From a bacterium BMS3Bbin05 (lineage in GTDB: Bacteria > Nitrospirota > Thermodesulfovibrionia > Thermodesulfovibrionales > BMS3Bbin05): DNA of 64,000 nucleotides. Shown in pieces: positions 16,299 to 59,241 of this stretch. Below the pieces are notes generated by a model. It was not told where the DNA came from. It did no database searches and saw only the letters and a list, made by a program, of their open reading frames with translations. The position numbers were made by a program, and so were the translations under genes. Location of the stretch: NCBI GenBank assembly GCA_002897855.1, contig BDTO01000080.1:5623-69622 (forward strand). The letters are read 5' to 3'. Positions within the stretch are counted from its first letter, which is position 1, and each line of letters begins with the position of its first letter.

Positions 16299-16366
16299 TA
16301 TCTGCCTCCTCTCAAAAAAATGAAATCAATTAGGAATTAGTATTTTAATAAAAAGCAGGGATATTT

Positions 16367-16768
16367 TTAAAGGGGTTTAACAGAAATTTCAACGATTTCG
16401 CCTTCGTTGATGGAAAATGCCTTCAACACAGGTATATCACCGGCAAGACTTACGATGATATATAAAGAATCAGGATAATAGGCAAGCCGTACATCTTTTG
16501 CCGATGGGAATGCCACGGAATCAGGGTGGGAATGATATATGGCGAGCATTTTCTCCTTCCTTTCCCTTATGTCTTTCATTACCTGAAATTGTTCCCCGGG
16601 GTCCATGAAATAGCTTACCCGTGAGTTTTCGGTATTTGTCATATTATATAAATGTGCAGAAGAGAATTCCTTTCCGGCAACAATCCCGCAGACCTCGTCC
16701 GGGTAACCGGCCTTTGCATGATCTATTATTTCATTAATGACGCTTCGGGGGATTCCAATCGTTTCCAT
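16367..16768 (-). CDS. JAMM/MPN+ metalloprotease (Mec/HcyD/QbsD-like)
   Basis: 133 aa. EVCG (catalytic Glu) plus HSHPDSVAFPSAKD, which matches HxHx7Sx2D exactly. Confidence 0.85.
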   Translation of the reverse strand: METIGIPRSVINEIIDHAKAGYPDEVCGIVAGKEFSSAHLYNMTNTENSRVSYFMDPGEQFQVMKDIRERKEKMLAIYHSHPDSVAFPSAKDVRLAYYPDSLYIIVSLAGDIPVLKAFSINEGEIVEISVKPL

Positions 16769-16858
16769 GTTCTATTCGTGAAAGACTTATTACTGACCCG
16801 GATAATCCATAAACCATCTCCGCCGTCCGCATGGCATTTAATTCATGAATAATATGGG

Positions 16859-18088
16859 TTAAAAGGCAACAGCCGGGCTGCAGGTCTGTTGTGAAAAAAG
16901 ATTGTTCAACATTAGATCGATTGCTTCACGGATTGTCGGTATGTATGTTTCTCCTTTTTTTGAGTAAATCCCGTCATTTCTTATTTCATCCAGTCTGGAA
17001 CCGGTGAATAGAAGGCCGTCTTTGAGACCGCGACGTGTTTTCGACAGCCAGTGAGCAATGCAAAACGGTGTTTTTCTGTTCATAAAGCCACAATTCTTTA
17101 TGCCTATGCAGGAAACACACCTTTTCCTCGTCTCGACCACGACTTTTGCCGCTGCCTTTAAGAATCCGTTATCAATATATCTTGACGGCATCCCGGCTGG
17201 ACTGGTCATCGTGGTAATGACCGGATACATGGGGTTCAGGTAAAATTCTTTGATTATTTCGTCGGACATGCCCGATTCCCGGGTCAGAAGCATTCTCGTT
17301 CCGCATGATACACCATTAAAACCCTGCTCCAAAGCCTTTTCGATATCCTCCCTGTACATAATGCCGCCTGCCAGGATTATCGGGATATCCGGATCAAGTT
17401 CCCTGAGACCGTTATAAAGTTCAATGGGTCTGAATTCGCTGTGATCATTTGCCTCCTCTGCATTTCCTGCGCCTAAATGCCCTCCAGCGAATTGAGGCAA
17501 TTCTACGTACCAGGCGTCCGGCTTGCGCCCCTTTCTAATCTGGGCCCTTTTTAGCATTATCCTGGCAGCCCTTACTGAAGAGATGATAGGTGCATAACGC
17601 ATATGAGGGTATCTTAGCATTTCGACCGGTAAATCCGTAGGAAGACCCGCGCCGACAAACAGGATATCAACGGATTTACTTTCGCCGATCACTTTGACCA
17701 GGATTTCGTAATTATTCACCGCTCTCATTAAATTAATACCTAAAATTCCGTATTGAGAATCTTGGCGCACTTTCCGGATCTTCCCGGAAAGTGCTGCCTT
17801 ATCTGTTTCAATAATTAATTTCTTTCTCTCCTCCATAGGCATGTTTTCAAGTTTTTCCTCGAATATATCATTGTACCCGACCAAAGAAGCAGCCAAAACT
17901 CCTATTCCACCCGCACTTATAACAGCGCCGGCCAGATCTTCATTGGAAAAATCGATTCCCATTCCCCCGTTCATTATCGGAAAGAGTATCTTGCGGGAAA
18001 AAACCGCTTCAAGATAATCGTTTTTCTCTTTTTCGGAAGAAAAAACCGGAGCAAGCAGGCTCTGTTCTTTAAGAATGGATTTTACCAT
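16859..18088 (-). CDS. nitronate monooxygenase / FabK-like FMN-dependent TIM-barrel oxidoreductase with a C-terminal Cys cluster
   Basis: 409 aa. PIMNGGMG, AGGIGVLA, FAGGHLG and ILAGGI motifs of the NMO family, plus an extra CVSCIGIKNC..(x9)..C segment. Confidence 0.7.
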   Translation of the reverse strand: MVKSILKEQSLLAPVFSSEKEKNDYLEAVFSRKILFPIMNGGMGIDFSNEDLAGAVISAGGIGVLAASLVGYNDIFEEKLENMPMEERKKLIIETDKAALSGKIRKVRQDSQYGILGINLMRAVNNYEILVKVIGESKSVDILFVGAGLPTDLPVEMLRYPHMRYAPIISSVRAARIMLKRAQIRKGRKPDAWYVELPQFAGGHLGAGNAEEANDHSEFRPIELYNGLRELDPDIPIILAGGIMYREDIEKALEQGFNGVSCGTRMLLTRESGMSDEIIKEFYLNPMYPVITTMTSPAGMPSRYIDNGFLKAAAKVVVETRKRCVSCIGIKNCGFMNRKTPFCIAHWLSKTRRGLKDGLLFTGSRLDEIRNDGIYSKKGETYIPTIREAIDLMLNNLFSQQTCSPAVAF

Positions 18089-18475: not shown

Positions 18476-18820
18476 ATGAATAATCAGTGTTCCCCAAGTT
18501 ATCGTGATTTTATGAAAAAAGTTCGAGCCCGTTATTTAAATGACATATCCGTTTTTATAATATCATTGATAATTCTCTTTCCCTCGATAACGTTCTCATC
18601 CGGCTGGGAGTCGGAGTTTGAGGCGATATGTTCCAAACTAACCATGGCTGACTCCATGAGTATTGAAGAAATCCAGTCTCTTATCGACAGGTCGGATAAA
18701 CTGCTGAAAGTGATCGAGGCTTCAGATAATCCCGGGAAGAAGATATTCATCCGCAGACTTAAAAAGTGCCGTGCCTTTTTCGAATTTTCCATTGAAGTAA
18801 AAAAAGAGAAATCCAGGTAA
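18476..18820 (+). CDS. hypothetical small membrane-anchored/secreted protein
   Basis: 114 aa with one hydrophobic helix (ISVFIISLIILFPSITF). A TTGACA-N18-TAAAAA promoter-like pair lies at about 18440..18469. No recognisable family; coding status is uncertain. Confidence 0.3.
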   Translation: MNNQCSPSYRDFMKKVRARYLNDISVFIISLIILFPSITFSSGWESEFEAICSKLTMADSMSIEEIQSLIDRSDKLLKVIEASDNPGKKIFIRRLKKCRAFFEFSIEVKKEKSR

Positions 18821-18952
18821 GATTTTCCCGGTTATTTTGTCCCGACAGGCCCCGACAAGGCCGAGGGATGAATGCAGTCAGTCGGGATGTCACCCATATT
18901 AGGGTGTCTACATCGGTACCACGGGCTTGCCCGTGGGGCTCCATGTGCGGCA

Positions 18953-20599
18953 TTACTGTTTTGTTCCGAGTCCGCCCACGACGAGAGTGAAATATTTTCC
19001 GCCTGCAATATCATTGACCGAGGAAACATTCCATATTCTCACTGGTGAAGATTTGGCAGGCTGATCTTTCAGGTCCTTTCCCCAAATCCATATTGTTCCA
19101 TCTTTCATGAGTGCCATGGAATGATACATGCCGGCGGCAACTTTTCTGATGTTTCCTACGCCACCAACCTCGGAGGGGAGGGAGCCGGCATCATCTTTCC
19201 TGCCAAGCTGGCTGTATTTATTGCCGCCCCATGCCCATACATGTCCGTCTTTCTTCAGCGCAAGGCTGTGATTGAGCCCGGCGGCTATATCAATAATTCC
19301 GGAAAGTTTTTTAACCTTTACGGGTATAAGCCTGTTTACGTTTGTACCGTCACCAAGCAGTCCATTGATGTTCCATCCCCATGCCCGGACAGTTCCGTCT
19401 GAAGCCAGTGCCAAAGTATAATGAAGCCCTGCAGCGACATTTATTATTTTCGGAAGTCCGGTTACGATGACAGGTTCGGTTCTGGTTTTCGTAGTATTGT
19501 CGCCGATCTGGCCGAAAAGGTTCCATCCCCAGGTCCAGACAGTTCCATCGGAGCGTACTGCTGCACTATGATATGTACCGGCGGCAATAGCGGTTATGTT
19601 GGACAATCCTTTAACCTTTACGGGTATATTGCTGTCCCGTATGGAGCCATTCCCCAGCTGGCCGTAAGAATTTCTTCCCCATGCCCAGACAGTACCATCT
19701 GCGCGCAGGGCAAGTGTATGGTACTTGCCTGCCGCAACGTCGGTAACCTTGTAAAGTTCCTTGACCAGTACAGGGATGTGACTGTCCTCCAATGTGCCGT
19801 TACCCAGTTGACCCATGTTGTTTCTGCCCCATGCCCATACGGAACCATCAGACTTGATTGCAACAGAATAGTCCATTCCGGAAGCAACTTTTATGACATC
19901 TTCCATGCCGCCTATCGGCAGAAGTCCATCCCTGCTATTTGTAGTTCCATCACCAAGCTGGCCGTATTCATTAAGGCCCTCTGTCATTATGGCGCCTGCA
20001 ACCGCTTTCTGGGGCATCCAGCTTGAACGTACGGGCCAGAGAAATTTGTAACTGCAGGCCGACATATAATCTATGGTCATTTCGCCGGAAGACATATCAA
20101 GTATCCACACATAATCAATTATATCCCTGCCTGTAGATGACGACCAGTAGAAATGGTTTTGGATATCCACAAACGGATTATTCACCGGAAGAGCAGGATA
20201 GAATTTTGTCCTATCCACCAGTGATTGCAATTCATTGATGGCAGGCATTCGCCAGTCCGTGTACCCGAAATTCGGTCTTTTGCCATAGTTCATTTCACGG
20301 ATATAAAGTTTTGCTCCCTCCCATGTTATGGGAAGTTTACGAATATCGGCATCTTTAAGCCATACAAGACCGGTATCGCTGTCTGTGACGGTTCCATCAC
20401 CGTTATCTGCAAAACGGCCTGCCTGGAATATCGAGGAAACATTACGAGAAGGAACGTTTTCTTTCCCTGCTGTCCTCTTGAGAGATTTAACTTTTCTGTG
20501 CGGGGAAGATGCCGGCCTTTTACTGACAGATGAAGCCTCTGCTGAAAAACCTTGTGAGAAAGAGAAAACGATCACTAATATAAAACAGATAATGCGCAT
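18953..20599 (-). CDS. secreted protein: DUF1566 (Lcl C-terminal-like) domain + seven RCC1-type beta-propeller repeats
   Basis: 548 aa with a signal peptide (MRIICFILVIVFSFSQGFSAEA). DNGDGTVTDSDTGLVWLKDA...WRMPAINELQSL is DUF1566-like. This is followed by repeated W(A/T)WG.N.(Y/F)GQLG(D/N)G blades. Confidence 0.8.
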   Translation of the reverse strand: MRIICFILVIVFSFSQGFSAEASSVSKRPASSPHRKVKSLKRTAGKENVPSRNVSSIFQAGRFADNGDGTVTDSDTGLVWLKDADIRKLPITWEGAKLYIREMNYGKRPNFGYTDWRMPAINELQSLVDRTKFYPALPVNNPFVDIQNHFYWSSSTGRDIIDYVWILDMSSGEMTIDYMSACSYKFLWPVRSSWMPQKAVAGAIMTEGLNEYGQLGDGTTNSRDGLLPIGGMEDVIKVASGMDYSVAIKSDGSVWAWGRNNMGQLGNGTLEDSHIPVLVKELYKVTDVAAGKYHTLALRADGTVWAWGRNSYGQLGNGSIRDSNIPVKVKGLSNITAIAAGTYHSAAVRSDGTVWTWGWNLFGQIGDNTTKTRTEPVIVTGLPKIINVAAGLHYTLALASDGTVRAWGWNINGLLGDGTNVNRLIPVKVKKLSGIIDIAAGLNHSLALKKDGHVWAWGGNKYSQLGRKDDAGSLPSEVGGVGNIRKVAAGMYHSMALMKDGTIWIWGKDLKDQPAKSSPVRIWNVSSVNDIAGGKYFTLVVGGLGTKQ

Positions 20600-20847
20600 G
20601 GTACCCTTTTTTTACATTAATTATGTATTTGTGAGCATTTTGCCTGTCAAAAAATAAAGTTAAGAGAACTTTCTATTTTAATTTAATGATAATATCGATA
20701 TCAAGCACTTATACTAAAAAATTTGAGATTATCTTTACAATTGTTTTATATAACTTTATAATATAACAATTTGTAAGATTTGTGAAATACCGAAATATCT
20801 CGGGTAGTTCTATCTATTATGAGAAAAATAAATTACAGGGAGTTCCT

Positions 20848-22278
20848 ATGTCTGCAAAAATGAGAATGATGCCGGTTTTGACGTTCCTTTTACTGTTGGC
20901 AGGAGTTGCGACTGTATTGGCCGCTGACTTCAATGAGGATTTTGCGTTTAAGATATCCCTCGAGAACCATCTCGAGAGAAGACTTAAACAGATGATTACA
21001 GAGATTACAGGCAATGACAGGGGCGTGGTTATAGTTAACGCAGACATAGGTTCGGTCAGGAGTGGTGATTTAAGCAGGGGCCGTATAACAAAAAAGAAAA
21101 GCCGGGACGCCCTTATTCTTCCGGGAGTGCCTGTAAAAAAGCAATTTGGGACGGGTTTGTCGGAAACAGCCGAGCTTCTCTTCCCTGGAGCAGGGGGGAG
21201 TAAATATAAGGTTAATAAAATAGTGCTTGCGATCTGGCTGGACAGGGGTATTTCGGAACCCGTGGTTGCACTTGTCCGGGACCTTGCAAAGCAGGTCATA
21301 GGGTTCAACGAGAAAAGAGGGGACAAAGTGAACATCCAGTTGATTGATTTTAAGAGAAATAAATTCTACTGGAAATCGGTATTCTATCCTGAAAACCTTT
21401 ACCTTATAATTCTGGGATTAATAGCAGCCATATTTCTTTTGACAGCTTCATTGTTTCTCAGGGACCCGTTCAGCAAGCTTTCCAGCGCTCTCAATAACAT
21501 TGATTGGGATCATCTGAGGGGTACTTCCGGTACTGGAGAGATGTTGAGAGCCGGTTCGGAGATGCAAAACTCCACGTTGGCGCATGAGCCGTCTGAGGAA
21601 TTGGAGCAGGTGAAGGCCGGGGAATCCCCGCCTTTTTCCTTTGTCAGTGAAAAAGACCTGCCCAGCCTCCTGTTCCTGTTAAAGAACATGCCTGCTGAAG
21701 ATATAGCTACCGTGGCGAACTACCTTGATGCAGCCCTGGCAACCAGACTGCTTGAATCTTTCTCTCCTGAAATTCAGTCCGGGATAGCGATATACCTGAG
21801 TAGTGAAAAGATCGACCCCGAAAAGGTCCGCAGTCTTGAAAACACGTTGAAGGAGCAGATCAGTTATGTAATCGGAGGGGAAAGAAAACTCGTATCTATT
21901 CTTCGCATGGCCAGTGAAGAAGTAAAAGACAGGGCCATAGGTGTTCTCGAGAAAAGGGACAGGGATAGTGCAGAAAATCTGAAAAAGAAAGTAAAAGGAT
22001 TTGAAGAGACGATCAGGGACCTGCCTTCGCAGGGAATACAGGTTATTTACCGGAGGACAAACCCTGTGCTGTTTGCCCAGATTCTGAAAGCTTCATCAGA
22101 AGATGTCAGAAAGAAGGTGATGGATTCGATTAGCGAAGGGGCAGCGGAAAGGCTTAAACAGGAAATAGAGCTTAGCCCCCCTCTTTTACCAAGGAGGCTG
22201 CAGAGGGAGAAAGTTAACCTGATGATTATGGTTAATCGTTTTATAGACGAAGGAATAATAGAAGGAGTCAACGGCTGA
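20848..22278 (+). CDS. bitopic/biTM protein fusing a FliF/SctJ-type periplasmic ring-building motif to FliG-like middle and C-terminal (torque) domains
   Basis: The track ORF starts at GTG 20782; the ATG at 20848 with an AGGGAG SD is preferred (476 aa). Order of segments: signal/anchor helix; RBM-like LENHLERRLKQMITEITGNDRGVVIVNADIG...KIVLAIWLDRGISEPVVALVRDLAKQVIGFNEKRGDKVNIQLIDF; TM helix LYLIILGLIAAIFLLTASLFL; then FliG_M-like (NMPAEDIATVANYLDAALATRLLESFSPEIQ) and FliG_C-like (GFEETIRDLPSQGIQVIYRRT..FAQILKASSEDVRKKVMDSISEGAAERLKQEIE...FIDEGII) segments. The domain calls are by eye. Confidence 0.65.
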   Translation: MSAKMRMMPVLTFLLLLAGVATVLAADFNEDFAFKISLENHLERRLKQMITEITGNDRGVVIVNADIGSVRSGDLSRGRITKKKSRDALILPGVPVKKQFGTGLSETAELLFPGAGGSKYKVNKIVLAIWLDRGISEPVVALVRDLAKQVIGFNEKRGDKVNIQLIDFKRNKFYWKSVFYPENLYLIILGLIAAIFLLTASLFLRDPFSKLSSALNNIDWDHLRGTSGTGEMLRAGSEMQNSTLAHEPSEELEQVKAGESPPFSFVSEKDLPSLLFLLKNMPAEDIATVANYLDAALATRLLESFSPEIQSGIAIYLSSEKIDPEKVRSLENTLKEQISYVIGGERKLVSILRMASEEVKDRAIGVLEKRDRDSAENLKKKVKGFEETIRDLPSQGIQVIYRRTNPVLFAQILKASSEDVRKKVMDSISEGAAERLKQEIELSPPLLPRRLQREKVNLMIMVNRFIDEGIIEGVNG

Positions 22279-22280
22279 TT

Positions 22281-23057
22281 ATGGATTTTATGACGCTTAT
22301 AGGTTTGCTGCTCGGGGGGTTAACTGTATATTTCGTTATGGTGTCAGGCCACATCCTTCACATGCTGTTTAATCCGATTGCTGCACTGCTCGTTTTTGGG
22401 GGAACATTCAGTGCTACCCTGATTGCCTATCCATGGGATCTCATTAAACAGACGGTTCCATCTTTCAGGCTCATGTTTTTCCCTAAAAAAAATACTTATG
22501 GACACCTGGGGAACCTTGTGGAAATACTCACATCACTCTCTGAAAAAGCCCGCAGGCAAAGTATCGAGAGTCTCCAGAGTGATCTCGGCAGGATAGATGA
22601 CAGGTTCTTTTCTCACAGTATGCAGATGGTAATCGACGGTCTTGAGACTGACGTGGTAAAGGAGAACATGCAGAGAGAGATTCTCTATTCAAGGCAGAGT
22701 TTCCAGAAAGTCTGCGGTGTTTTCAGAACTATGGCTACACTTGCTCCGATTTTTGGTCTGCTGGGCACACTGATAGGTGTTGTTGAAGTCCTCCGGAACC
22801 TTTCAGACCCTGCAACAATGGGAAGCGGTATGGCGATTGCCATAACAACGACATTTTATGGTATCTTTGCGGCCAACTTTTTGTTTCTTCCCATTGCCAT
22901 CAAGCTCAACGAACACAGCGAAAGAGATGTATTGATCAAGGAACTGATTGCTGAAGGGATTAGTGCAATTCAGGGTGGAGACCTGCCTCTGATTGTCAGG
23001 AAAAAACTCAATGCATTTCTCTCGTCCAATATAAAGGAAAAAAACGAAGGCAGGTAA
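22281..23057 (+). CDS. motA: MotA/PomA-type stator channel subunit
   Basis: 258 aa with a 4-TM layout. Conserved TM3-TM4 core LAPIFGLLGTLIGVVEVL...GMAIAITTTFYGIFAANFLFLPIAIKL. Starts 2 nt after the upstream stop. Confidence 0.85.
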   Translation: MDFMTLIGLLLGGLTVYFVMVSGHILHMLFNPIAALLVFGGTFSATLIAYPWDLIKQTVPSFRLMFFPKKNTYGHLGNLVEILTSLSEKARRQSIESLQSDLGRIDDRFFSHSMQMVIDGLETDVVKENMQREILYSRQSFQKVCGVFRTMATLAPIFGLLGTLIGVVEVLRNLSDPATMGSGMAIAITTTFYGIFAANFLFLPIAIKLNEHSERDVLIKELIAEGISAIQGGDLPLIVRKKLNAFLSSNIKEKNEGR

Positions 23058-23059
23058 AA

Positions 23060-23740
23060 ATGATAAAACGTTTTTTTCTTCTCAGAAACAGAAGGGAAAC
23101 AAGTCCTCTCTGGCTCATCATATTCTCCGACATGACAACCAATCTCATGCTTTTTTTTCTGATACTCTTTGCAATGACCAGGATGACAGCGACCGGCAAG
23201 GAATTGATGATTGAAGGAATGGGAAATGCAGTCAGTGACGAATTGAGGCAGGTCCAGCTTAAGGGTGAAAAGCTTCTCAAACAGATTAAGGACGAAGAAG
23301 CTATAAATAACCTGAGAAATGTGCTTATGCATGGAAAACTGGCCGGCTATACGAAGATGACGGTTGATGAAGACAGGGTAAATATAACACTTAATCCGCC
23401 GCACTTTTTTGCGACCGGCAGTGCCGAGCTGAACCCGGATATTCTAACCGAGCTCGAAAGCCTTGTTGATCCGCTGAAGAGATTTCCCAATGATATAGTA
23501 ATAGAGGGGCATACGGACAATGTTCCGGTAGCCAGCGGTAAATACCGGTCAAACTGGGAACTTTCGATAGCGCGTGCCGTAAGTGTCATAAATTTTTTAA
23601 CGGAAAAAGGATTAAACCCAAAGCAACTCATAACAGCGGGCTATGGCAAATATCACCCTGCATATCCCAATGATACCGAAGAACACCGTGCGCGTAACCG
23701 CCGGATAGAAATTACAATAATAAGGAAACAGAGGTTGTAG
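23060..23740 (+). CDS. motB: MotB-type stator subunit (TM with conserved Asp + OmpA-like peptidoglycan-binding domain)
   Basis: 226 aa. The PLWLIIFSDMTTNLMLFFLILF TM helix carries the MotB Asp. The OmpA-like C-terminus reads GHTDNVP...SNWELSIARA...GYG...P...NRRIEITI. Confidence 0.85.
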   Translation: MIKRFFLLRNRRETSPLWLIIFSDMTTNLMLFFLILFAMTRMTATGKELMIEGMGNAVSDELRQVQLKGEKLLKQIKDEEAINNLRNVLMHGKLAGYTKMTVDEDRVNITLNPPHFFATGSAELNPDILTELESLVDPLKRFPNDIVIEGHTDNVPVASGKYRSNWELSIARAVSVINFLTEKGLNPKQLITAGYGKYHPAYPNDTEEHRARNRRIEITIIRKQRL

Positions 23741-23745
23741 AGACG

Positions 23746-24396
23746 GTGGACTCCATTCAGAAAATGATTTCAAACCTGAAAGACAACGAAGTGGATAGTT
23801 CGCTTTGGATGGTTCCATATAGCACACTTATGCTGATTTTGATGATATTATTTGCAGTTCTCTATGGTATGTCATACATGCAATCAGTTGAATATGAGTC
23901 TGCCATTTCAGAGCTTGACACGGCAAATCCGGGACTGAAAAAGGAGATAATACTGGCCAAGGCCATGCAGAAATATATTGAAGATCATAATTTGACCGGT
24001 CAGGCCGAGGTAAGGGTATCGGCCCGGTTCATAAAAATGGATCTCAAGAGCCCTGCACTGTTTGAAACCGGGAGAGCCAAACTGAAACCGGCCATACTGC
24101 CCCTCTTTGAAGAACTGGCTAAGAACCTGCAGAGGGTGGATAACCGTGTTATTGTGGAAGGCCACACGGACGATGTCCCTATACATAACAGACACTATAA
24201 TTCCAATTGGGAACTTTCGGCAGCCAGGGCGTTCAATGTAATATATTTCCTTATAAAAAGAAATATTGATCCTGCACGTCTGATTGCCCTCGGCTTCGGC
24301 GAATACAGGCCGGCATTCCCGAACAACACCGAAGAAAACCGTGCAAAGAATCGCAGAATAGATATCACGATCATCCGGGAAGGTAAAACTGCATGA
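23746..24396 (+). CDS. MotB paralog lacking the conserved channel Asp (OmpA-like C-terminal domain intact)
   Basis: 216 aa with a GTG start. The TM helix LWMVPYSTLMLILMILFAVLY aligns to WLIIFSDMTTNLMLFF of the upstream paralog with Thr in place of Asp. The OmpA-like region reads GHTDDVP..SNWELSAARA..GFG..RP..NRRIDITI. Confidence 0.75.
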   Translation: MDSIQKMISNLKDNEVDSSLWMVPYSTLMLILMILFAVLYGMSYMQSVEYESAISELDTANPGLKKEIILAKAMQKYIEDHNLTGQAEVRVSARFIKMDLKSPALFETGRAKLKPAILPLFEELAKNLQRVDNRVIVEGHTDDVPIHNRHYNSNWELSAARAFNVIYFLIKRNIDPARLIALGFGEYRPAFPNNTEENRAKNRRIDITIIREGKTA

Positions 24397-25694
24397 AGAG
24401 TGCCATATCTGTTTTCATGATGATATTCCTGTTGACTTCGGTTTCTGTTGAGGCGATATCGCAAAAACAGCTTGAGAGGGTCGAAGAACTCAAGAAGGAA
24501 GCAGTTGAATTGCTCAGACATAAGGAATTCGACAAGGCCGTGCCGGTGCTGAACGAGATACTCTCAATAGACCCGTTTGAGAAGACAGCTAAACGGTATC
24601 TCATGCTTGCCAGACAGCAGTCGATGGAGCCTTTCTGCAAGGAAGCGGCGACGGCTTTCATGCATGACGATTACGCGAGGGCAATTGATATATGGGAAAA
24701 AATTCTCCGGATGAATCCTGATGATTACAGATTTTCCAGGCTGATTGAGATTACAAAGAATCTTATTTCGGACAAGGCAATAAATGATATGTATGTACAT
24801 GCCGATGAATTTCTTAAGAAGGGAGACAAGAAATCCGCCATCAATGAACTTGAGAAAATTCTTTTCGTCAAACCATCTGAAAGACGAGCAAGGGAAATGC
24901 TGGCAACTGCCAGGCAGTCTACATCGGACATCAGGACAAAAAAGCATTATAAACGGGCTGAGAAATATATGAAACAGAAAAAGTATGATCTTGCCATTGA
25001 GGAATGGAATAAGATACTCGAAATAGACGAAACCCAGCAGGAGGCCAAACGATTCATTGCGTCCGCCATAAGGGCGAAACTGAAGGTCCAGTATGCCAGG
25101 GCCAGACGTCTCTATGAGAAAGGAGACTATCTTTCCGCGCGTGATCATTATTACAAGATAATGGTTGACAACCCCACGGATACGAATGTGAAAAGCATAA
25201 TATCGAATCTTGACGAAACGGTCAAGATCGTGAGCAGGCTTAGCCGGAAGGGCAAGACATTTGATATGATGAGAATGGCGCTGAAAAATCATATCGCTGC
25301 GGAAGGAAACAGGAAGGCGGCAATTGTAGCTGCATGGTATGCGGTTCAGCTTGACCCGATGAACAGTACCGCTCTTGCGATAAAGAATTTCCTGGAACAC
25401 AAGTATGTTGCTATTCTTAATACCCTGGAACCTCCCATTGGAGATATGAATATTATTGATCAGTACCTGTTTGCGGCGCTTAACAATATATATGAGGGAC
25501 GTTATGACCGTGCGATCGAGGAATCCACTATTGTTATCGAACTTCAGTCCGATAATGTCCTTGCATGGAAGAGACTTGGTTCAGCATATTTTGCGTTGGG
25601 CAGGAAGGACAAGGCACGCAAGGCATGGAAAAAAGCGCTGAAATTGGCGCCTGACGATGCCGAGCTTAAGAGGTTTATCAGACAAACTAAATAA
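24393..25694 (+). CDS. secreted TPR-repeat protein
   Basis: 433 aa with a signal peptide (MKSAISVFMMIFLLTSVSVEA). Multiple TPR-like units (..Y..A...Y.K.L..DP.. / AWKRLGSAYFALGRKDKARKAWKKALKLAPDD). ATGA overlap with the upstream gene. Confidence 0.75.
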   Translation: MKSAISVFMMIFLLTSVSVEAISQKQLERVEELKKEAVELLRHKEFDKAVPVLNEILSIDPFEKTAKRYLMLARQQSMEPFCKEAATAFMHDDYARAIDIWEKILRMNPDDYRFSRLIEITKNLISDKAINDMYVHADEFLKKGDKKSAINELEKILFVKPSERRAREMLATARQSTSDIRTKKHYKRAEKYMKQKKYDLAIEEWNKILEIDETQQEAKRFIASAIRAKLKVQYARARRLYEKGDYLSARDHYYKIMVDNPTDTNVKSIISNLDETVKIVSRLSRKGKTFDMMRMALKNHIAAEGNRKAAIVAAWYAVQLDPMNSTALAIKNFLEHKYVAILNTLEPPIGDMNIIDQYLFAALNNIYEGRYDRAIEESTIVIELQSDNVLAWKRLGSAYFALGRKDKARKAWKKALKLAPDDAELKRFIRQTK

Positions 25695-25746
25695 ATGGAA
25701 GGATTATATTTGGGATTTACTTTATTAATCATGATGGGGTGAATCG

Positions 25747-27204
25747 ATGTTTAAGGCAATGTTAAAAAAAATATTATTTATTCTTATAATTATTGCCTGT
25801 CAGATGCTGATTGGTTCCGTAATTTCCGTCAATTCTGTTTATGCACAGGAAAAAGAATGCCTCAAATGTCATAAGGCGATGACAAAAGGCAAGGTTGTTC
25901 ATGGCGCCCTCCAAAAAGGATGTTCTTCATGCCACCAGTCACCGCACGCGGGAGGCAAACCCGTTCTTTCATTGATATCCGAACAGCCCGGTCTTTGTTA
26001 TAAATGCCACAGCCGCGGGATATTTCTGAGACAACACCAGCATGCCCCGGTAGCTGACGGGAAATGTACGGCATGTCACAACCCTCACTCTTCAAACAAT
26101 GCCGGACTTCTGAAGATAAAACTTACAGACATATGTTTCAGTTGTCATGATAAAAAGATAATCGAAAAAAACTATGTCCATTTTCCTGCCGCGGCAGGAC
26201 TTTGCATATTCTGTCATGATCCTCACAGCTCGGATTACAATGATAAGCTGTATACTTATGATAAGACCGAGCTCTGCCTGCAATGCCACGACAAGGCCGC
26301 ATTGGTTGCGGGGTCATCAGTGCATCAGCCTATAATTGTGGGTGACTGTACTTCATGTCACAATCCACACGGGGCAGATAACAAAAACCTTCTTGTTGAG
26401 AAGATACCCGAATTATGTTTCAGATGCCATGATAGCAGGAATTTTATGAAAGGCATGCTCCATAAACCGGTTGGGCTTGGAAAATGTCTTTCATGCCATC
26501 AGCCGCATAAGTCGGAGTATGACAAACTCCTGATTGCAAAGGAGCCTGAACTGTGTTTCAGGTGTCATGACAAAGCGTCATATATGGGAGATAAGAATAT
26601 TCACAGGCCGGTTGCATCGGGTAGATGTTCTACCTGTCATAAGCCTCATACTTCGAAGTCCAAAAACATGCTTGACGGGGCTGTAGCCGACCTCTGTTTT
26701 AAGTGCCACATGTCACAGGAATTTATGCAGAGGTTTAAACATGGGCCCTTTAAAATTGGTATGTGTAGTGCTTGTCACAACGCACATCAGAGTGAAAACA
26801 ATGAGCTGTTGATCGACAAAGTGCCGGGACTCTGTTTTAATTGTCATAATATTGAAGCATTCAGTCGCCGTAAGATACACAAGCCTGTTGCAGAGGGCAG
26901 ATGCTTTGAATGTCATGATATTCATACCTCTCCTTCCAGGGGATTACTGAAGGCCGAGCCGGACGAAATATGCAGAAAATGTCATAAGAATCTATTTAAG
27001 AGACCACATCCAATTACTAAATTGCCGGGAAAAACTGAAGGACCAAACCAGGGGCACCCGCTTGCAGGAGTTGAAAATCCGAGAAGACCCGGTAACATGA
27101 TGTCGTGCGTGAGTTGCCATGACCCCCACAGCTCCGACTGGGGTAGCCTGTTCCGCTATAAAACAGAAAAACCTGAAGACCTCTGTGGCTACTGTCACAG
27201 ATGA
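25747..27204 (+). CDS. periplasmic multihaem c-type cytochrome, 19 CxxCH motifs (nine di-haem repeat modules + one)
   Basis: 485 aa with a signal peptide ending VYAQE. I counted 19 CxxCH motifs, organised as alternating LC(F/Y)xCH and H.P(V/I)..G.CxxCH.PH units. Confidence 0.9.
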   Translation: MFKAMLKKILFILIIIACQMLIGSVISVNSVYAQEKECLKCHKAMTKGKVVHGALQKGCSSCHQSPHAGGKPVLSLISEQPGLCYKCHSRGIFLRQHQHAPVADGKCTACHNPHSSNNAGLLKIKLTDICFSCHDKKIIEKNYVHFPAAAGLCIFCHDPHSSDYNDKLYTYDKTELCLQCHDKAALVAGSSVHQPIIVGDCTSCHNPHGADNKNLLVEKIPELCFRCHDSRNFMKGMLHKPVGLGKCLSCHQPHKSEYDKLLIAKEPELCFRCHDKASYMGDKNIHRPVASGRCSTCHKPHTSKSKNMLDGAVADLCFKCHMSQEFMQRFKHGPFKIGMCSACHNAHQSENNELLIDKVPGLCFNCHNIEAFSRRKIHKPVAEGRCFECHDIHTSPSRGLLKAEPDEICRKCHKNLFKRPHPITKLPGKTEGPNQGHPLAGVENPRRPGNMMSCVSCHDPHSSDWGSLFRYKTEKPEDLCGYCHR

Positions 27205-27289
27205 AAAGGATGAGATTATCTACTTGGCAGAATTGACTTAATAAAAGGTTTTTTTTAAAATTTAACATCTTATCAGGGAGGTATATATT

Positions 27290-28054
27290 ATGAAATTTAA
27301 ATTTCTATTGCTGTCTTTCATGCTTTTACTGTCCGTCTCTGTTGTGTTGGCTGCGACATTCGGCACAAAGAAAAGAATGAAAAAGCCTTATGAATTCGGC
27401 AATGTCATAATAAATAACTATTCAAAGAAGAGCGAAATTGCCCCGGTTATTTTCAGGCATTGGACACACAGGTCAAAGTATACGTGCAGATTGTGCCATG
27501 TTGATATCGGGTTCGCTATGGAGGCCGGGGGCAGTGATATCAGGGAAGAAGATAACAAGATCGGATTGTATTGCGGAACATGTCATAATGGCAAAATTTC
27601 CTTTGATCTGAAATCGAAAGATAATTGCGTTAAGTGCCACTCCCTCGGAAAAGAGAGTGAGCCCGTTAAGAAATTTTATGAATTTTCAAACAAGATGCCC
27701 AAGGAACGCTTTGGAAACCGCATAGACTGGATGAAGGCCGAAGAGAAGGGAATAATTAAACTCCAGGATTATGTAGAAGGCGTATCGATGAAGAGAAAAC
27801 AGTTGAAGGCGGGGAAGGATTTCGAAGTCAAGTCCAAAATTCTTGGTATGCCTGATATTATCTTCTCACATAAAAAACATGCAGTTATGAACGGATGCGA
27901 ACTTTGTCACCCTGAAATATTCGGCGCAAAAAAGGGTGTTACCAAATATTCCATGGAGGATATATTCGCGGGGAAATATTGCGGCGCCTGTCATGATAAG
28001 GTGGCATTCCCTTTTTATGATTGCCAGCGTTGCCATGTAAAGGAAACATATTAG
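27290..28054 (+). CDS. hexahaem c-type cytochrome (two c7/c3-like trihaem halves)
   Basis: 254 aa with a signal peptide and 6 CxxCH motifs (CRLCH, CGTCH, CVKCH, CELCH, CGACH, CQRCH). Each half begins F(R/S)H..H. Confidence 0.85.
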   Translation: MKFKFLLLSFMLLLSVSVVLAATFGTKKRMKKPYEFGNVIINNYSKKSEIAPVIFRHWTHRSKYTCRLCHVDIGFAMEAGGSDIREEDNKIGLYCGTCHNGKISFDLKSKDNCVKCHSLGKESEPVKKFYEFSNKMPKERFGNRIDWMKAEEKGIIKLQDYVEGVSMKRKQLKAGKDFEVKSKILGMPDIIFSHKKHAVMNGCELCHPEIFGAKKGVTKYSMEDIFAGKYCGACHDKVAFPFYDCQRCHVKETY

Positions 28055-28105
28055 ATTCAGCTGATAAGGTCTGATATCTTTTGTTGATCTGAAAGTGAGA
28101 TCACA

Positions 28106-28864
28106 ATGCAGAGTATAGTCCTGCTTTTTTCCCTTGCTCTTCTGGGAGTGATGAACTACGCAACGTTGTGGGATTTTCCCAAACTCCCTCCGCCCTCACA
28201 ATACGGGAATATTCTGATAAACAGGATATCCGGAAAAAACGGTCAGCTGCCGGTTACTTTTTCACACTGGATTCACCGCATTAAGTATACCTGCAGGGTA
28301 TGCCACTCGGAACTGGATTTTGCAATGGAGGTCAACAAGACGGAAATTACTATGAAAAAAAACCGTGAAGGCGAATACTGCGGTGCCTGCCATAATGGTA
28401 AAACCGCATTTGGATTTACGAAAGAAAACTGTCCAAAATGTCATAATGGAGATATTGCATACGGGTCGGAAAAATTTGAAGAATTCAGAAGACATATGCC
28501 CAAGTCGCGCTATGGGAATAAGATCAACTGGTCAAAAGCCATCGGAAAGAAGAGGATCAAACCAAAAAGCAGTATCAGGGATGATGATTATTCACCAATA
28601 CCTTTCAAAAAGATGCTTGTCCTGAAGTCTGAGTGGTCTCTCACTGCTGACGCCTTTGCTGTTTTTTCGCACAAGAGGCACATCAGGTGGCTTGATTGTG
28701 CTGATTGTCATCCCGATATATTCAATATCAAAAAAAAGGGTACGAAATTCTTCAGAATGAAATATATTCTTGACCGTAAATTCTGTGGCGTGTGCCATAT
28801 GAACGTGGCATTTCCGGTGCAGGATTGCATACGATGCCATCCCGCGCTGGGAAGAAATGAATAG
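28106..28864 (+). CDS. hexahaem c-type cytochrome, paralog of 27290..28054
   Basis: 252 aa with 6 CxxCH motifs (CRVCH, CGACH, CPKCH, CADCH, CGVCH, CIRCH). Spacing and flanking motifs match the upstream gene (PVTFSHWIHRIKYTCRVCH vs PVIFRHWTHRSKYTCRLCH). Confidence 0.85.
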   Translation: MQSIVLLFSLALLGVMNYATLWDFPKLPPPSQYGNILINRISGKNGQLPVTFSHWIHRIKYTCRVCHSELDFAMEVNKTEITMKKNREGEYCGACHNGKTAFGFTKENCPKCHNGDIAYGSEKFEEFRRHMPKSRYGNKINWSKAIGKKRIKPKSSIRDDDYSPIPFKKMLVLKSEWSLTADAFAVFSHKRHIRWLDCADCHPDIFNIKKKGTKFFRMKYILDRKFCGVCHMNVAFPVQDCIRCHPALGRNE

Positions 28865-29015
28865 TAATGTAATCAGGTAAACAACTTTGATGGGCTTTAT
28901 ATAATTTCTTCAGCCGAATTATCCGCCGGTCTGACAAGTACTTCCCCGGAAAGAATGGGGTCTCTGATAAACGGCAGTTTTAATATTTTTCTATAGGCGC
29001 CTTTCGTAGAAACGG

Positions 29016-29168
29016 TAAATAGAGTCTGTGTATAAAGTCGGTTTCTCTATCTGTCATTTCCCGACTTAGTCGGGGAATCTATTCTTTTCAATAAATTCCG
29101 GATGTCCCGAAGGCTTTCGGGGCATGACAGGAATAAAAAAACAACAATTTATACACAGACTCTAAATA
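29016..29168 (+). mobile_element. MITE-like element, copy 1 (~153 bp, ~16-bp terminal inverted repeats AGAGTCTGTGTATAAA)
   Basis: taaatAGAGTCTGTGTATAAAgtc...gtcccgaaggctttcggggcatgac...TTTATACACAGACTCTaaata. Homologous copies lie at 40633..40786, 53973..54126 and 54121..54275. Confidence 0.8.
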
Positions 29169-29336: not shown

Positions 29337-30143
29337 TCAGAAATTCATCCTGCAGTAGTCCGCCTCGTAGTCCTGAAGTTCGGTAATCGTAGGATTCTCT
29401 CCGCATACAGGGCATTTCGGATTCTTCGGTACTTTTACTTTCCTGAAACTTACCTTCAGGGCGTCATAGATAAGCATCCGGTTCTGAAGTACGTCGCCTT
29501 TCCCGATGATGAGTTTCAGTACCTCCATAGCCTGAAGTCCTCCGATAATACCGGGCAGGGCTCCGAGTACGCCGGCCTCCTGGCAGGAGGGAACAAGACC
29601 TGCCGGCGGCATCTCTTCAAAGAGGCACCTGTAGCAATGCCCTTGCCTGGGGATGATTGTCGTTACCTGTCCTTCAAACCTCAGTATGGCGCCGCTAACC
29701 AGAGGTTTCCCCACAAGCACGCACGCATCGTTCACAAGGTATCTTGTTGGGAAGTTGTCACTGCCGTCGACTACGACATCACAGTCTTCAATAAGGCCAA
29801 TTATATTATCTTTGGTTATCTTTTCATTCAACGCAATAACCTTGACATCCGGGTTCAATGCCTGAAATGTTTTTTTGGCGGATTCCGCCTTGGGCATACC
29901 CACTCTTTCGGTATTATGTGCAATCTGCCTCTGTAAATTGCTCAGTTCAACATTGTCATTGTCTATCATGACAATGGTTCCCACCCCCGCCGCCGTAAGA
30001 TAGTAACCAACAGGGCAGCCCAGTCCTCCCGCGCCTACTATGACAACTCTGGAGGAGAGAAGCCTTTCCTGCCCCTTGCCACCGACTTCAGGCAGGATTA
30101 TGTGTCTGCTGTATCTGTGAATCTGGTCATCAGTGAAATCCAT
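29337..30143 (-). CDS. MoeB/ThiF/HcyF-type sulfur-carrier adenylyltransferase (E1-like), no rhodanese domain
   Basis: 268 aa. RYSRHIILPEVG..GQ..L, the GAGGLGCP nucleotide loop, and two CxxC pairs (CYRC / CPVC). Confidence 0.88.
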   Translation of the reverse strand: MDFTDDQIHRYSRHIILPEVGGKGQERLLSSRVVIVGAGGLGCPVGYYLTAAGVGTIVMIDNDNVELSNLQRQIAHNTERVGMPKAESAKKTFQALNPDVKVIALNEKITKDNIIGLIEDCDVVVDGSDNFPTRYLVNDACVLVGKPLVSGAILRFEGQVTTIIPRQGHCYRCLFEEMPPAGLVPSCQEAGVLGALPGIIGGLQAMEVLKLIIGKGDVLQNRMLIYDALKVSFRKVKVPKNPKCPVCGENPTITELQDYEADYCRMNF

Positions 30144-30424
30144 TACTCTTTTTCCTTTCTAACCACTATAATCCATTCCCTGTCATTGATCTTTTCAACT
30201 TTTAGTACCTTCTGGCCGTGGTCCTGCATGGATTTTGGAATATTTTCTGTCGCATCTTTGTAGTCAAGCAAAATCTCGAGCACCTGCCCGAGTTCCAAAC
30301 TTTCTATTGCAAGTTTCGATCTTACAAAAGTGTATGGGCAGACGAGTCCCCTGATATCGACTTTTTTGTCCGGTTTGATCTGTTCCATTAAGCCTCCCCC
30401 GAAATTTGAAGAAGAGTCACTCAT
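30143..30424 (-). CDS. TusA/SirA-like sulfurtransferase
   Basis: 93 aa. DIRGLVCPYTFVRSKLAIESLELGQVLEILLD fits the TusA D.RG..CP.P......L..G..L pattern (CPYT in place of CPxP). 1-nt overlap with the E1 gene. Confidence 0.7.
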   Translation of the reverse strand: MSDSSSNFGGGLMEQIKPDKKVDIRGLVCPYTFVRSKLAIESLELGQVLEILLDYKDATENIPKSMQDHGQKVLKVEKINDREWIIVVRKEKE

Positions 30425-57625: not shown

Positions 57626-57635
57626 AGTATAGCTT

Positions 57636-59241
<1,606 letters not shown>

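What the first reader, a model, noticed from the sequence alone, without database searches (positions are those of the whole stretch)
25747..28864. 19-haem and twin hexahaem cytochromes directly downstream of, and co-oriented with, the rotor-stator cassette
Three secreted c-type cytochromes follow the TPR gene on the same strand, after gaps of only 52, 85 and 51 nt. I see no terminator between them.

The first has 19 CxxCH motifs arranged as nine near-regular di-haem modules (LCFxCH ... H.P(V/I)..G.CxxCH.PH) plus a terminal CGYCH. This is the kind of repetitive architecture seen in long-range electron-transfer cytochromes of metal reducers.

The next two are tandem paralogs, each made of two trihaem c7-like halves (6 CxxCH each).

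Physical linkage of a MotAB-type energiser with a 31-haem periplasmic electron-transfer set is not an association I know from the literature. It may be coincidental adjacency. If they are co-transcribed, it would suggest an ion-motive-force-coupled process acting on, or regulated by, periplasmic or extracellular electron-transfer components, for example assembly, export or positioning.
Basis: partly seen in the sequence, partly recalled or inferred. Interest (0 to 1): 0.55.

Follow-up and report, generated by a model that had tools for sequence, protein, structure and literature searches.

The report
Multihaem cytochromes tied to motor-like cassette
Three real periplasmic multihaem cytochromes sit behind a non-flagellar FliF/FliG-MotAB "motor-like" gene cassette, and this order is kept across a whole clade of Nitrospirota; the 19-haem protein always travels with the cassette, the two hexahaem genes are a common free-standing module, and any working link between motor and cytochromes is still only inferred.

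Summary
ORFs 25747-27204, 27290-28054 and 28106-28864 encode cytochromes with 19, 6 and 6 CxxCH motifs. The gaps are 52, 85 and 51 nt, and no intrinsic terminator appears before 29056-29078.

The window comes from the Nitrospirota MAG BMS3Abin07. The 19-haem protein is an MtrA/DmsE-type wire of about twice the usual length. The two hexahaems are 41%-identical paralogues, each equal to half of Geobacter GSU1996.

In 13 of 15 distinct loci that read past the TPR gene, the cassette (FliF-RBM3/FliG fusion, MotA, MotB, Asp-less MotB', TPR) is followed by the 19-haem gene. Wherever the contig continues, the haem counts are 19/6/6, while the flanking genes differ. One apparent exception is a scaffold-gap artefact.

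The link is specific to this lineage:
- Two distant cassettes (36-37% identity) have no cytochromes.
- The fusion family has at least 120 clusters at 50% identity.
- The hexahaem pair (more than 2,600 clusters) stands alone elsewhere and has a conserved promoter-like element of its own.

Best reading: the 19-haem gene is a dedicated, co-expressed accessory of the cassette, and the hexahaem pair is a docked general electron-carrier module. Mechanical coupling is not shown. No description was found in the literature. Interest is moderate to high.

The parts
18476..18820 (+). Small conserved protein (114-aa ORF; about 104 aa in relatives). No Pfam match. Part of the conserved block in the Nitrospirota clade.
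   Evidence: BLASTP orthologues (38-48% id) sit at the same position in L001, L002, L008-L010, L016, L018, L021, L022, L024, L027 and L030. No Pfam or PADLOC hit.
18953..20599 (-). Secreted RCC1-repeat / Lcl_C protein, transcribed divergently from the cassette. Conserved accessory of the block.
   Evidence: Pfam RCC1 x6 and Lcl_C. Orthologues (51-65% id) lie directly upstream of the cassette in all clade A and B loci, but not in the cassette-only loci L003 and L005.
20734..20762 (+). Best sigma-70-like promoter match of the region (TTTACA-17-TATAAT, 11/12), upstream of the first cassette gene.
   Evidence: A consensus match only; no transcript data.
20848..22278 (+). FliF(RBM3-like periplasmic domain)-TM-FliG(middle + C-terminal) fusion, the putative rotor. 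The ORF opens at GTG 20782; the database protein starts at ATG 20848.
   Evidence: Pfam FliG_C, FliG_M and weak YscJ_FliF_C. 100% identical to P0001, named FliG of bacterium BMS3Abin07. The AF2 model has an alpha-beta-beta-alpha-beta domain, a TM helix and a helical FliG_MC part. Foldseek hits FliG at E 3e-9 and FliF RBM3/S-ring at E 1e-4. phmmer hits FliG 1lkv at E 3e-14.
22281..23057 (+). MotA-type stator A subunit.
   Evidence: Pfam MotA_ExbB (E 6e-26) and MotA_N. Full-length NCBIfam MotA/MotP/PomA alignments score about 182 bits, below the equivalog cutoffs.
23060..23740 (+). MotB1: plug, TM segment with the conserved Asp (FSDM), and an OmpA-like peptidoglycan-binding domain.
23746..24396 (+). 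MotB2: a MotB paralogue that lacks the channel Asp (PYSTLM) in every lineage.
24393..25694 (+). Periplasmic TPR protein (433 aa) and last gene of the five-gene core cassette. Overlaps MotB2 by 4 nt.
   Evidence: Pfam TPR families. Present in all cassettes, including the cytochrome-less L003 and L005 (44-46% id).
25747..27204 (+). 19-haem periplasmic c-type cytochrome: an MtrA/DmsE-type paired-CXXCH wire with haem spacing of 23-24 aa.
   Evidence: 19 CxxCH, 39 His. 9 x Paired_CXXCH_1. TIGR03508 scores 225 bits against a cutoff of 192. PDB MtrA 6r2q_A at E 2.9e-17. AF2 pLDDT 82.5. By Foldseek only MtrA is significant, E 2.8e-8, TM 0.58. Orthologues have 19 haems in all 11 loci measured.
27233..27261 (+). 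Promoter-like TTGACT-17-TAAAAT element 57 nt upstream of the first hexahaem gene. Conserved in position in clade A.
   Evidence: 10/12. The same element lies at -56 in L037 and -61 in L032, although the rest of the spacer has diverged. The stand-alone pair in L034 has TTGACA-17-TATATT.
27290..28054 (+). Hexahaem cytochrome A: two c7-type triheme domains, equal to half of GSU1996.
   Evidence: PDB 3ov0 at E 3.3e-34 with four domain alignments. 2,618 homologous clusters at 54-75% id among the best.
28106..28864 (+). Hexahaem cytochrome B: an ancient paralogue (41% id) of the preceding gene, always found in tandem with it.
   Evidence: The tandem partner is present in every context examined.
29056..29078 (+). 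Best intrinsic-terminator-like hairpin (10-bp stem, U-rich tail), 190 nt after the last cytochrome gene. The likely end of the transcription unit.
   Evidence: The fold of 29000-29135 gives z = -3.2.

Best explanation
SHOWN. The three ORFs encode Sec-type periplasmic c-type cytochromes.
- The first is a 19-haem wire of the MtrA/DmsE kind, with enough histidines for all-bis-His ligation and nearly twice MtrA's length.
- The other two are an ancient tandem pair of hexahaem cytochromes, each made of two c7 triheme domains (half of GSU1996).

They form the 3' end of a ten-gene block: small protein, RCC1/Lcl_C protein, FliF-RBM3/FliG fusion, MotA, MotB, Asp-less MotB', TPR, 19-haem, hexahaem, hexahaem. 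Two deep clades of Nitrospirota keep this block intact while its flanks are rearranged.

INFERRED.
- The 19-haem gene is a dedicated accessory of the motor-like cassette, specific to this lineage. It is co-inherited with the cassette and most likely transcribed with it, from the promoter near 20734 to the terminator near 29056.
- The hexahaem pair is a general periplasmic electron carrier or capacitor module with its own promoter, docked behind the 19-haem gene.
- Working model: the hexahaem pair passes electrons to or from the 19-haem wire. Scaling from MtrA (10 haems, about 8 nm) gives about 15 nm, enough to bridge much of the periplasm.
- The pmf-driven, peptidoglycan-anchored FliFG/MotAB/TPR complex is made at the same time. 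It may anchor, position or assemble that wire in the envelope. It is not needed for the hexahaem pair's general function.
For: Identity of the proteins.

Conserved order and exact 19/6/6 haem counts: seen in the window, L037, L001 (=L019), L002, L008, L009, L016, L018, L021, L022 and L025. L024 is cut after the 19-haem gene.

Apparent exception resolved: L010 is explained by 100-N scaffold gaps. The N-terminal 99 aa of the 19-haem gene follow TPR with a 4-nt ATGA overlap. The C-terminal 368 aa plus the twin pair follow another gap in L032.

Co-divergence: 19-haem identity tracks TPR identity (69/72, 55/58, 74/79 %) across loci with 45-61% GC.

The block behaves as a unit:
- Flanks differ between and within clades.
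- TPR-to-19-haem gaps run from -4 to 112 nt, on the same strand, with no terminator.
- There is no compositional break.

Test from the cytochrome side: of five hexahaem-pair contexts reached independently of the cassette, two have both the 19-haem gene and the cassette and three have neither.

Own promoter of the twin pair.
Against: - There are no transcript data.
- Cytochrome junctions (52-85 nt) are much looser than the cassette's internal ones (-4 to +5 nt).
- Sub-clade B1 has a conserved promoter-like element between TPR and the 19-haem gene.
- The cassette occurs without any cytochrome in L003/L004 and L005/L028. Its family has at least 120 full-length clusters at 50% identity, and context is known for only four.
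- Loci were mostly retrieved with the cassette protein as bait, so a 19-haem orthologue without the cassette could have been missed. The word-indexed search with the 19-haem protein returned only repeat-rich paralogues.
- The block has no inner-membrane quinol dehydrogenase and no outer-membrane porin, so it is not a complete conduit.
- No physical interaction was tested.
Confidence: 0.45

Rival explanations
1. Conserved but functionally neutral adjacency. The cytochromes are ordinary periplasmic electron carriers that were placed next to the cassette in an ancestor of these Nitrospirota. They have stayed there by inheritance, perhaps sharing read-through transcription, without working together with the motor-like complex.
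For: - The twin pair works elsewhere without the cassette.
- The cassette exists without cytochromes.
- Promoter-like elements lie in front of the hexahaem pair and, in sub-clade B1, in front of the 19-haem gene.
- The cytochrome junctions are looser than the cassette junctions.
Against: Order, orientation, spacing and exact haem counts survive divergence to about 55% protein identity and a 45-to-61% GC shift, while the flanks are rearranged even within clade A. In L010 the 19-haem gene overlaps the TPR stop codon by 4 nt. In the contexts sampled, the 19-haem gene was seen only with the cassette.
Confidence: 0.3
2. Redox input to the motor. The periplasmic cytochromes report the redox state of the periplasm or of an external acceptor, and the FliFG/MotAB complex responds to it. 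In this reading the cytochromes regulate the machine rather than being its cargo.
For: Only the conserved linkage, together with the fact that the cassette is the older, self-sufficient unit.
Against: A 19-haem wire and 12 further haems are far more than a sensor needs. No sensor or transducer domain (PAS, HAMP, MCP) is present in the block. In clade B the neighbouring two-component genes lie outside the conserved block.
Confidence: 0.1
3. Part of a porin-cytochrome outer-membrane conduit of the MtrAB / PioAB / Pcc type. The 19-haem protein would be the periplasm-facing wire threaded into a beta-barrel encoded elsewhere. The cassette would be unrelated or only helping the envelope.
For: MtrA is the only significant sequence and fold match. 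TIGR03508 scores above its cutoff. Clade B loci carry further multihaem cytochromes and NHL propellers nearby, as EET clusters do.
Against: No beta-barrel gene is among the ten conserved genes, and none was seen in the flanks of the loci examined. The protein has 19 haems rather than 10. The window holds no other multihaem ORF in 64 kb.
Confidence: 0.1
4. The upstream genes are simply flagellar stator and switch genes, and the cytochromes happen to lie next to a flagellar locus.
For: The source record names the first gene 'flagellar motor switch protein FliG'. The MotA and MotB hits are to flagellar families.
Against: - All flagellar equivalog cutoffs are missed by a wide margin: FliG 66.7 against 226.7, MotA 182 against 340-394.
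- FliG_N is replaced by a periplasmic FliF-RBM3-like domain plus a TM helix.
- There are two MotB genes, one without the channel Asp.
- No other flagellar gene is present in the window or in any related locus.
- The five genes travel as a fixed cassette.
Confidence: 0.03

Closest known systems
MtrA / DmsE family decahaem cytochromes (Shewanella MtrCAB, PDB 6R2Q chain A; TIGR03508)
   Same: Periplasmic Sec-exported wire built of paired CXXCH modules, with enough His for bis-His ligation throughout. MtrA is the only significant PDB match by sequence (E 2.9e-17) and by predicted fold (E 2.8e-8, TM 0.58). The family model scores above its cutoff (225 against 192 bits).
   Different: It has 19 haems in 485 aa instead of 10 in about 330 aa. 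No MtrB-type barrel or MtrC-type partner is in the block. It is encoded behind a FliFG/MotAB/TPR cassette, whereas MtrA is encoded beside its porin.
GSU1996 dodecahaem 'nanowire' cytochrome of Geobacter sulfurreducens (PDB 3OV0; hexahaem fragments 3OUE, 3OUQ; TIGR04257)
   Same: Each twin is made of two c7-type triheme domains. All four GSU1996 domains align (E 3.3e-34). Each twin has four or five spare His plus a Met aligned with the GSU1996 'TMLDME' segment. From my own recollection of the GSU1996 structure, this fits two bis-His haems and one His-Met haem per domain.
   Different: Each protein has two domains rather than four. The proteins occur as a fixed tandem pair of 41%-identical paralogues, conserved at 54-75% identity across phyla. 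I found no characterised member of this pair.
Flagellar rotor-stator interface (FliF MS-ring, FliG, MotA5B2)
   Same: The fusion protein carries a FliF RBM3-like fold, a TM helix and FliG middle and C-terminal domains. MotA is of the flagellar type. MotB1 has the plug, the channel Asp and a peptidoglycan-binding domain.
   Different: There are no rod, hook, export-gate, FliM or FliN genes. FliF and FliG are one polypeptide without FliG_N. The Arg at the position of T. maritima 'SKRAA' is Gly, with an Arg three residues later. A second MotB lacks the Asp. A periplasmic TPR protein is a fixed member. All equivalog cutoffs are missed.
Other non-flagellar 5:2 ion-driven motors with periplasmic adaptors (ExbBD-TonB, TolQR-TolA-Pal-CpoB, AglRQS-Glt, GldLM, ZorAB)
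   Same: The general logic is the same: an inner-membrane ion-driven unit, a peptidoglycan-anchored component, and TPR or other periplasmic adaptors that serve lineage-specific clients. This is my own knowledge of those systems. The mBio 2025 survey PMC12505986 lists such non-flagellar relatives.
   Different: Those systems use ExbB/TolQ-type A subunits and have no FliG partner. Here MotA is flagellar-type and is paired with a FliG domain. ZorA, ZorC and ZorD are absent. None of those systems is known to have a multihaem cytochrome client.
Uet electron-uptake cluster of 'Ca. Tenderia electrophaga' (bioRxiv 10.1101/2022.05.06.490989)
   Same: It co-localises c7-type triheme cytochromes, a long multihaem cytochrome, NHL propellers and a TPR protein in one conserved EET module.
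   Different: It contains a beta-barrel porin and cytochrome-maturation genes, and no MotA, MotB or FliG genes.

Membership tests
MtrA/DmsE decahaem cytochrome family (TIGR03508) | Sequence match above the curated family cutoff | tested here: met
   225.0 bits against a cutoff of 192.2, spread over 5 repeated stretches. MtrA 6r2q_A matches at E 2.9e-17.
MtrA/DmsE decahaem cytochrome family (TIGR03508) | Ten CxxCH haem sites in about 300-350 aa | tested here: not met
   19 CxxCH in 485 aa. The count is invariant in 11 orthologues.
MtrA/DmsE decahaem cytochrome family (TIGR03508) | Encoded next to its outer-membrane beta-barrel partner (MtrB/DmsF/PioB) | tested here: not met
   None of the ten conserved block genes is a barrel, and none was seen in the flanks examined. 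The rest of the genome could not be searched.
MtrA/DmsE decahaem cytochrome family (TIGR03508) | Extended MtrA-like fold | tested here: met
   AF2 pLDDT 82.5. By Foldseek only 6r2q_A is significant, E 2.8e-8, TM (target) 0.58 over 266 columns.
c7-type triheme multidomain cytochromes (GSU1996 type, TIGR04257) | c7 triheme domain match above cutoff | tested here: met
   123 bits against a cutoff of 40, two domains in each twin. 3ov0 matches at E 3.3e-34.
c7-type triheme multidomain cytochromes (GSU1996 type, TIGR04257) | Four domains / twelve haems, as in GSU1996 | tested here: not met
   Two domains and six haems per protein. This equals the AB or CD half (3ouq, 3oue).
c7-type triheme multidomain cytochromes (GSU1996 type, TIGR04257) | One His-Met haem and two bis-His haems per domain | tested here: inconclusive
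   Four or five spare His per protein and a Met aligned with the GSU1996 'TMLDME' segment fit this pattern. Ligation cannot be established from sequence.
Single operon with the cassette | Same strand, short gaps, no intrinsic terminator in between | tested here: met
   Gaps are 52, 85 and 51 nt in the window and -4 to 112 nt (TPR to 19-haem) in relatives. The first good terminator is at 29056-29078.
Single operon with the cassette | No internal promoter | tested here: inconclusive
   A conserved TTGACT-17-TA[AG]AAT element precedes the hexahaem pair in clade A. A conserved TTGATT-17-TAGACT element precedes the 19-haem gene in sub-clade B1. No such element is found in the window's 52-nt gap.
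Single operon with the cassette | Gene order conserved across diverged genomes | tested here: met
   13 of 15 distinct loci that read past TPR have the 19-haem gene next. Ten besides the window show the full 19/6/6 set.
Single operon with the cassette | A transcript spanning 25694-25747 and 27204-27290 | not testable with these tools
   No RNA data are available.
Flagellar motor genes (FliG TIGR00207; MotA NF005997 and others) | Equivalog score cutoffs | tested here: not met
   FliG scores 66.7 against 226.7. MotA scores about 182 against 340-394. MotB scores 114-154 against 283-301.
Flagellar motor genes (FliG TIGR00207; MotA NF005997 and others) | Neighbouring flagellar structural or export genes | tested here: not met
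   None is present in the 64-kb window or in any related locus.
Zorya anti-phage system | ZorA plus ZorC/ZorD (or ZorE) partners | tested here: not met
   Only generic ZorB/MotB hits were found. MotA does not hit ZorA, and there is no ZorC, ZorD or ZorE.

The most novel reading that the evidence does not exclude
The Nitrospirota block encodes a previously unrecognised envelope machine. A non-flagellar FliF-FliG/MotAB motor, pmf-driven and peptidoglycan-anchored, would be mechanically coupled through its periplasmic ring and the TPR protein to a wire of 19 haems and about 15 nm. Ion flow would then insert, extend, retract or turn an electron conduit. This would be a motorised or switchable periplasmic wire, fed by the hexahaem pair.
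Probability: 0.12. Interest if true: 0.9.

Novelty: new variant of a known kind. Interest (0 to 1): 0.6.

Why it matters
The cytochromes alone extend known families: an MtrA-type wire of double length, and an uncharacterised but very widespread tandem hexahaem module.

What is unusual is the partner. The cassette pairs flagellar-type stator genes with a natural FliF-FliG fusion, and its family has at least 120 clusters at 50% identity. I found no description of it in the literature.

If the conserved linkage reflects function, it would be the first case of an ion-driven rotor/stator-type machine serving a respiratory electron conduit. It would also give a concrete handle on two things:
- how long periplasmic cytochrome wires are positioned across peptidoglycan in diderm bacteria;
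- what non-flagellar FliG/MotAB modules do.

If the linkage is neutral, the result still defines a clean marker block for a Nitrospirota clade. It also flags the twin hexahaem pair as a conserved carrier worth characterising.

Tried and rejected
1. The word-indexed homologue search with the 19-haem protein returned 2,398 repeat-rich paralogues. It found neither the query nor its orthologues, so it could not show whether the orthologue ever occurs without the cassette. The closest paralogue, P0026, sits in a four-cytochrome + NHL cluster without a cassette.

2. L010 (CP070669.1) at first looked like a cassette with only a 3-haem remnant, with the twin pair 1.1 Mb away. I rejected this reading. 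Both places abut 100-N scaffold gaps, and the two pieces add up to the 19-haem gene.

3. In L037 the 19-haem gene seemed missing from the gene calls. A full 19-haem ORF is present.

4. The Zorya / defence reading is rejected.

5. A sigma-54 promoter search gave fewer hits than chance and none in the relevant gaps.

6. Rfam and tRNA scans found nothing in the block.

7. Four literature searches for the association or the cassette found nothing relevant. A search for the MAG name also found nothing.

8. The cluster look-up for taxonomy of distant fusion-family members returned no names.

9. The canonical flagellar reading is rejected on score cutoffs, domain architecture and gene context.

Full report
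**Observation**

- They carry 19, 6 and 6 CxxCH motifs and no variant motifs.
- The gaps are 52, 85 and 51 nt.
- The first protein has 39 His for 19 haems, enough for bis-His ligation throughout. From haem 3 to haem 17 the motifs are spaced 23-24 residues apart.
- Pfam sees nine Paired_CXXCH_1 modules in it, and two c7 domains in each of the other two proteins.
- The twins are 41% identical.
- All three start with a signal-peptide-like segment. In every orthologue of the 19-haem protein an A-x-A site directly precedes the first CxxCH. This rests on inspection only.
- GC and GC3 match the neighbouring genes.

**What lies upstream**

The window belongs to the Nitrospirota MAG 'bacterium BMS3Abin07'. 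Five tightly packed genes (junctions -4 to +5 nt) lie in front of the cytochromes.
- The first is a fusion of a FliF-RBM3-like periplasmic domain, a TM helix and the FliG middle and C-terminal domains. The evidence is Pfam, the AF2 model, Foldseek hits to FliG at E 3e-9 and to FliF RBM3 rings at E 1e-4, and phmmer to FliG 1lkv.
- Next come a flagellar-type MotA and a MotB with plug and channel Asp.
- A second MotB lacks that Asp in every lineage.
- The last gene is a periplasmic TPR protein.

All flagellar equivalog cutoffs are missed. No other flagellar gene is present in the window or in related loci. It is not a Zorya system.

**Transcription signals**

- The best promoter-like site of the region (11/12) lies at 20734-20762, before the first cassette gene. 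The best terminator-like hairpin lies at 29056-29078, after the last cytochrome gene (fold z = -3.2).
- No terminator lies in between.
- The 52-nt gap folds into an AU-rich hairpin over the ribosome-binding site (z = -2.5).
- The 85- and 51-nt gaps fold no better than shuffles.
- The 85-nt gap does hold TTGACT-17-TAAAAT (27233-27261). The same element lies at the same distance from the hexahaem start in L037 and L032, although the spacer is otherwise diverged. A stand-alone pair (L034) has TTGACA-17-TATATT. The hexahaem pair therefore probably has its own promoter.
- No sigma-54 site is present.

**Comparative synteny, seeded with the cassette**

The sources were a genome scan, a metagenome scan with an alignment of 20 family members and contig look-ups. 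Together they gave 15 distinct loci that read past the TPR gene.
- In 13 of them the next gene is the 19-haem cytochrome.
- Wherever the contig continues, the two hexahaem genes follow, and the haem counts are exactly 19/6/6.
- These loci fall into two clades. Clade A has about 45% GC and includes the window, L037 and L010. Clade B has 55-61% GC. Proteins are about 55-58% identical between the clades.
- Identity of the 19-haem protein tracks that of the TPR protein, which indicates co-inheritance rather than recent insertion.
- The conserved unit is ten genes long. It also includes a small protein and a divergent RCC1/Lcl_C protein.
- Outside the unit the flanks differ between clades and even within clade A. 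For example, TusA lies left of the block in L037 and L010 but right of it in the window.

**An apparent exception that is an artefact**

In the 'complete' genome CP070669.1 the cassette seemed to be followed by only a 3-haem stub, with the twin pair 1.1 Mb away. Both places abut runs of 100 N.
- The stub is the N-terminal 99 aa of the 19-haem gene, and it overlaps the TPR stop codon by 4 nt.
- The C-terminal 368 aa plus the twins follow the other gap.

The repetitive gene broke the assembly, so the order there is most likely the same as elsewhere.

**Limits of the linkage**

1. Two distant cassettes have all five core genes but no RCC1 gene and no ORF with two or more CxxCH anywhere in 14-16 kb. 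These are L003/L004 (36% identity) and L005/L028 (37% identity).
2. An exhaustive profile search shows that the FliF-FliG fusion family is large. It has 224 representatives at E<=1e-30, and about 122 of the best 150 match full length. The cytochrome-linked clades account for about two of these clusters, and context is known for only four.
3. The hexahaem protein has 2,618 homologous clusters, 54-75% identical among the best 120. In three contexts reached independently of the cassette, the tandem pair stands alone among unrelated genes. These are Desulfobulbaceae L033, BMS3Bbin06 L034, and L038-L040 at 63% identity, as close to the window as clade B is. Of the five contexts reached from the cytochrome side, the 19-haem gene is present exactly where the cassette is (two with both, three with neither).
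4. Sub-clade B1 has a strongly conserved non-coding element between TPR and the 19-haem gene: TTGATT-17-TAGACT with a TG extension. This suggests an additional promoter there.

**What the proteins are like**

- The 19-haem protein passes the DmsE/MtrA family cutoff (225 against 192 bits).
- It matches MtrA of the Mtr complex (6r2q_A) and essentially nothing else, by sequence (E 2.9e-17) and by predicted fold (pLDDT 82.5; E 2.8e-8, TM 0.58).
- It has nearly twice MtrA's haems and no barrel partner in the block.
- Scaling from MtrA's ten haems over about 8 nm (my own knowledge of the 2020 Mtr structure) gives about 15 nm.
- Each twin aligns to all four domains of GSU1996 (3ov0, E 3.3e-34) and equals one half of it.
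- The closest non-orthologous relative of the 19-haem protein lies in a four-cytochrome + NHL cluster without a cassette.

**Interpretation**

- Shown: the cytochromes are real, and the 19-haem gene is inherited together with the cassette across two deep Nitrospirota clades. The hexahaem pair is an autonomous, widespread module.
- Inferred: the 19-haem gene is co-transcribed with the cassette and acts as a lineage-specific accessory of it.
- Inferred: the hexahaem pair exchanges electrons with it, by analogy with PpcA or STC feeding OmaB or MtrA (established knowledge of Geobacter and Shewanella pathways).
- Inferred: the pmf-driven, peptidoglycan-anchored complex may anchor or position the wire.
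- The main rival is conserved but neutral adjacency.

I found no paper describing the cassette or its association with cytochromes. The nearest thematic parallel is the Tenderia Uet cluster, which combines c7 cytochromes, NHL propellers and a TPR protein but has a porin and no Mot or FliG genes.

**Verdict**

The cytochromes are new variants of known kinds. Their conserved partnership with a FliFG/MotAB cassette has no precedent that I could find, but it is proven only at the level of gene order.

Noticed in passing
window 20848-25694 and proteins P0263-P0408: The FliF(RBM3)-TM-FliG(M,C) fusion that heads the cassette belongs to a large unnamed family. It has 224 representatives (50%-identity clusters) at E<=1e-30, and about 122 of the best 150 match full length at 450-730 aa. 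No names, taxonomy or papers were found for it.
   Followed up: partly
window 23746-24396 (MotB2) compared with 23060-23740 (MotB1): MotB2 lacks the ion-binding Asp of the TM segment (PYSTLM) in every lineage, including the cytochrome-less cassettes. MotB1 keeps it (FSD[MIL]). This suggests a MotB1/MotB2 heterodimer with a single conducting site, or a non-conducting anchor subunit.
   Followed up: partly
L008 4143-7390 (-), also L001, L009, L016, L021, L022, L023; L002 18308-21347 (+): Clade B loci carry a 13-haem cytochrome next to the block, plus an 8-haem cytochrome with an internal OmpA/MotB-type peptidoglycan-binding domain. Two NHL propeller genes follow these in L008 and L009, the two loci where Pfam gene tables were available. 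The pairing of cytochromes with peptidoglycan anchoring thus recurs.
   Followed up: partly
L010 15130-15229; L032 2236-2335 and 8711-8810 (CP070669.1): The 'complete genome' CP070669.1 contains 100-N scaffold gaps. One pair of gaps splits the repetitive 19-haem gene between positions about 2.12 Mb and 1.02 Mb, so the contig order in that record is unreliable here.
   Followed up: yes
L001 14830-14880, L009, L021, L024 (TPR to 19-haem junction): A strongly conserved non-coding element, TGTTTGATTTTT-N11-CTGATAGACTTTCG, resembles a sigma-70 promoter with an extended -10. It is present only in sub-clade B1.
   Followed up: partly
window 25710-25746: An AU-rich hairpin in the 52-nt gap pairs with the GGGGUG ribosome-binding site of the 19-haem gene (fold z = -2.5). 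It may modulate translation. It is not conserved in L037 or L010.
   Followed up: partly
window 18476-20599: A small protein with no family match and a secreted RCC1-repeat/Lcl_C protein are conserved on the other side of the cassette. They occur in exactly the lineages that have the cytochromes and are absent from the cytochrome-less cassettes.
   Followed up: partly
window 57629-57738: A PyrR binding site (RF00515, 58.9 bits) lies in front of the pyrR-pyrB-pyrC-carA-carB cluster. The same cluster lies near the block in L010 and L037.
   Followed up: no
window 15066-18088 and 29337-30424: Sulfur-carrier-type genes flank the block on both sides: a PLP enzyme with an N-terminal zinc ribbon, a JAB/MPN protease, MoeB/ThiF and TusA. 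This suggests that the block was inserted into, or inverted within, such a cluster.
   Followed up: no
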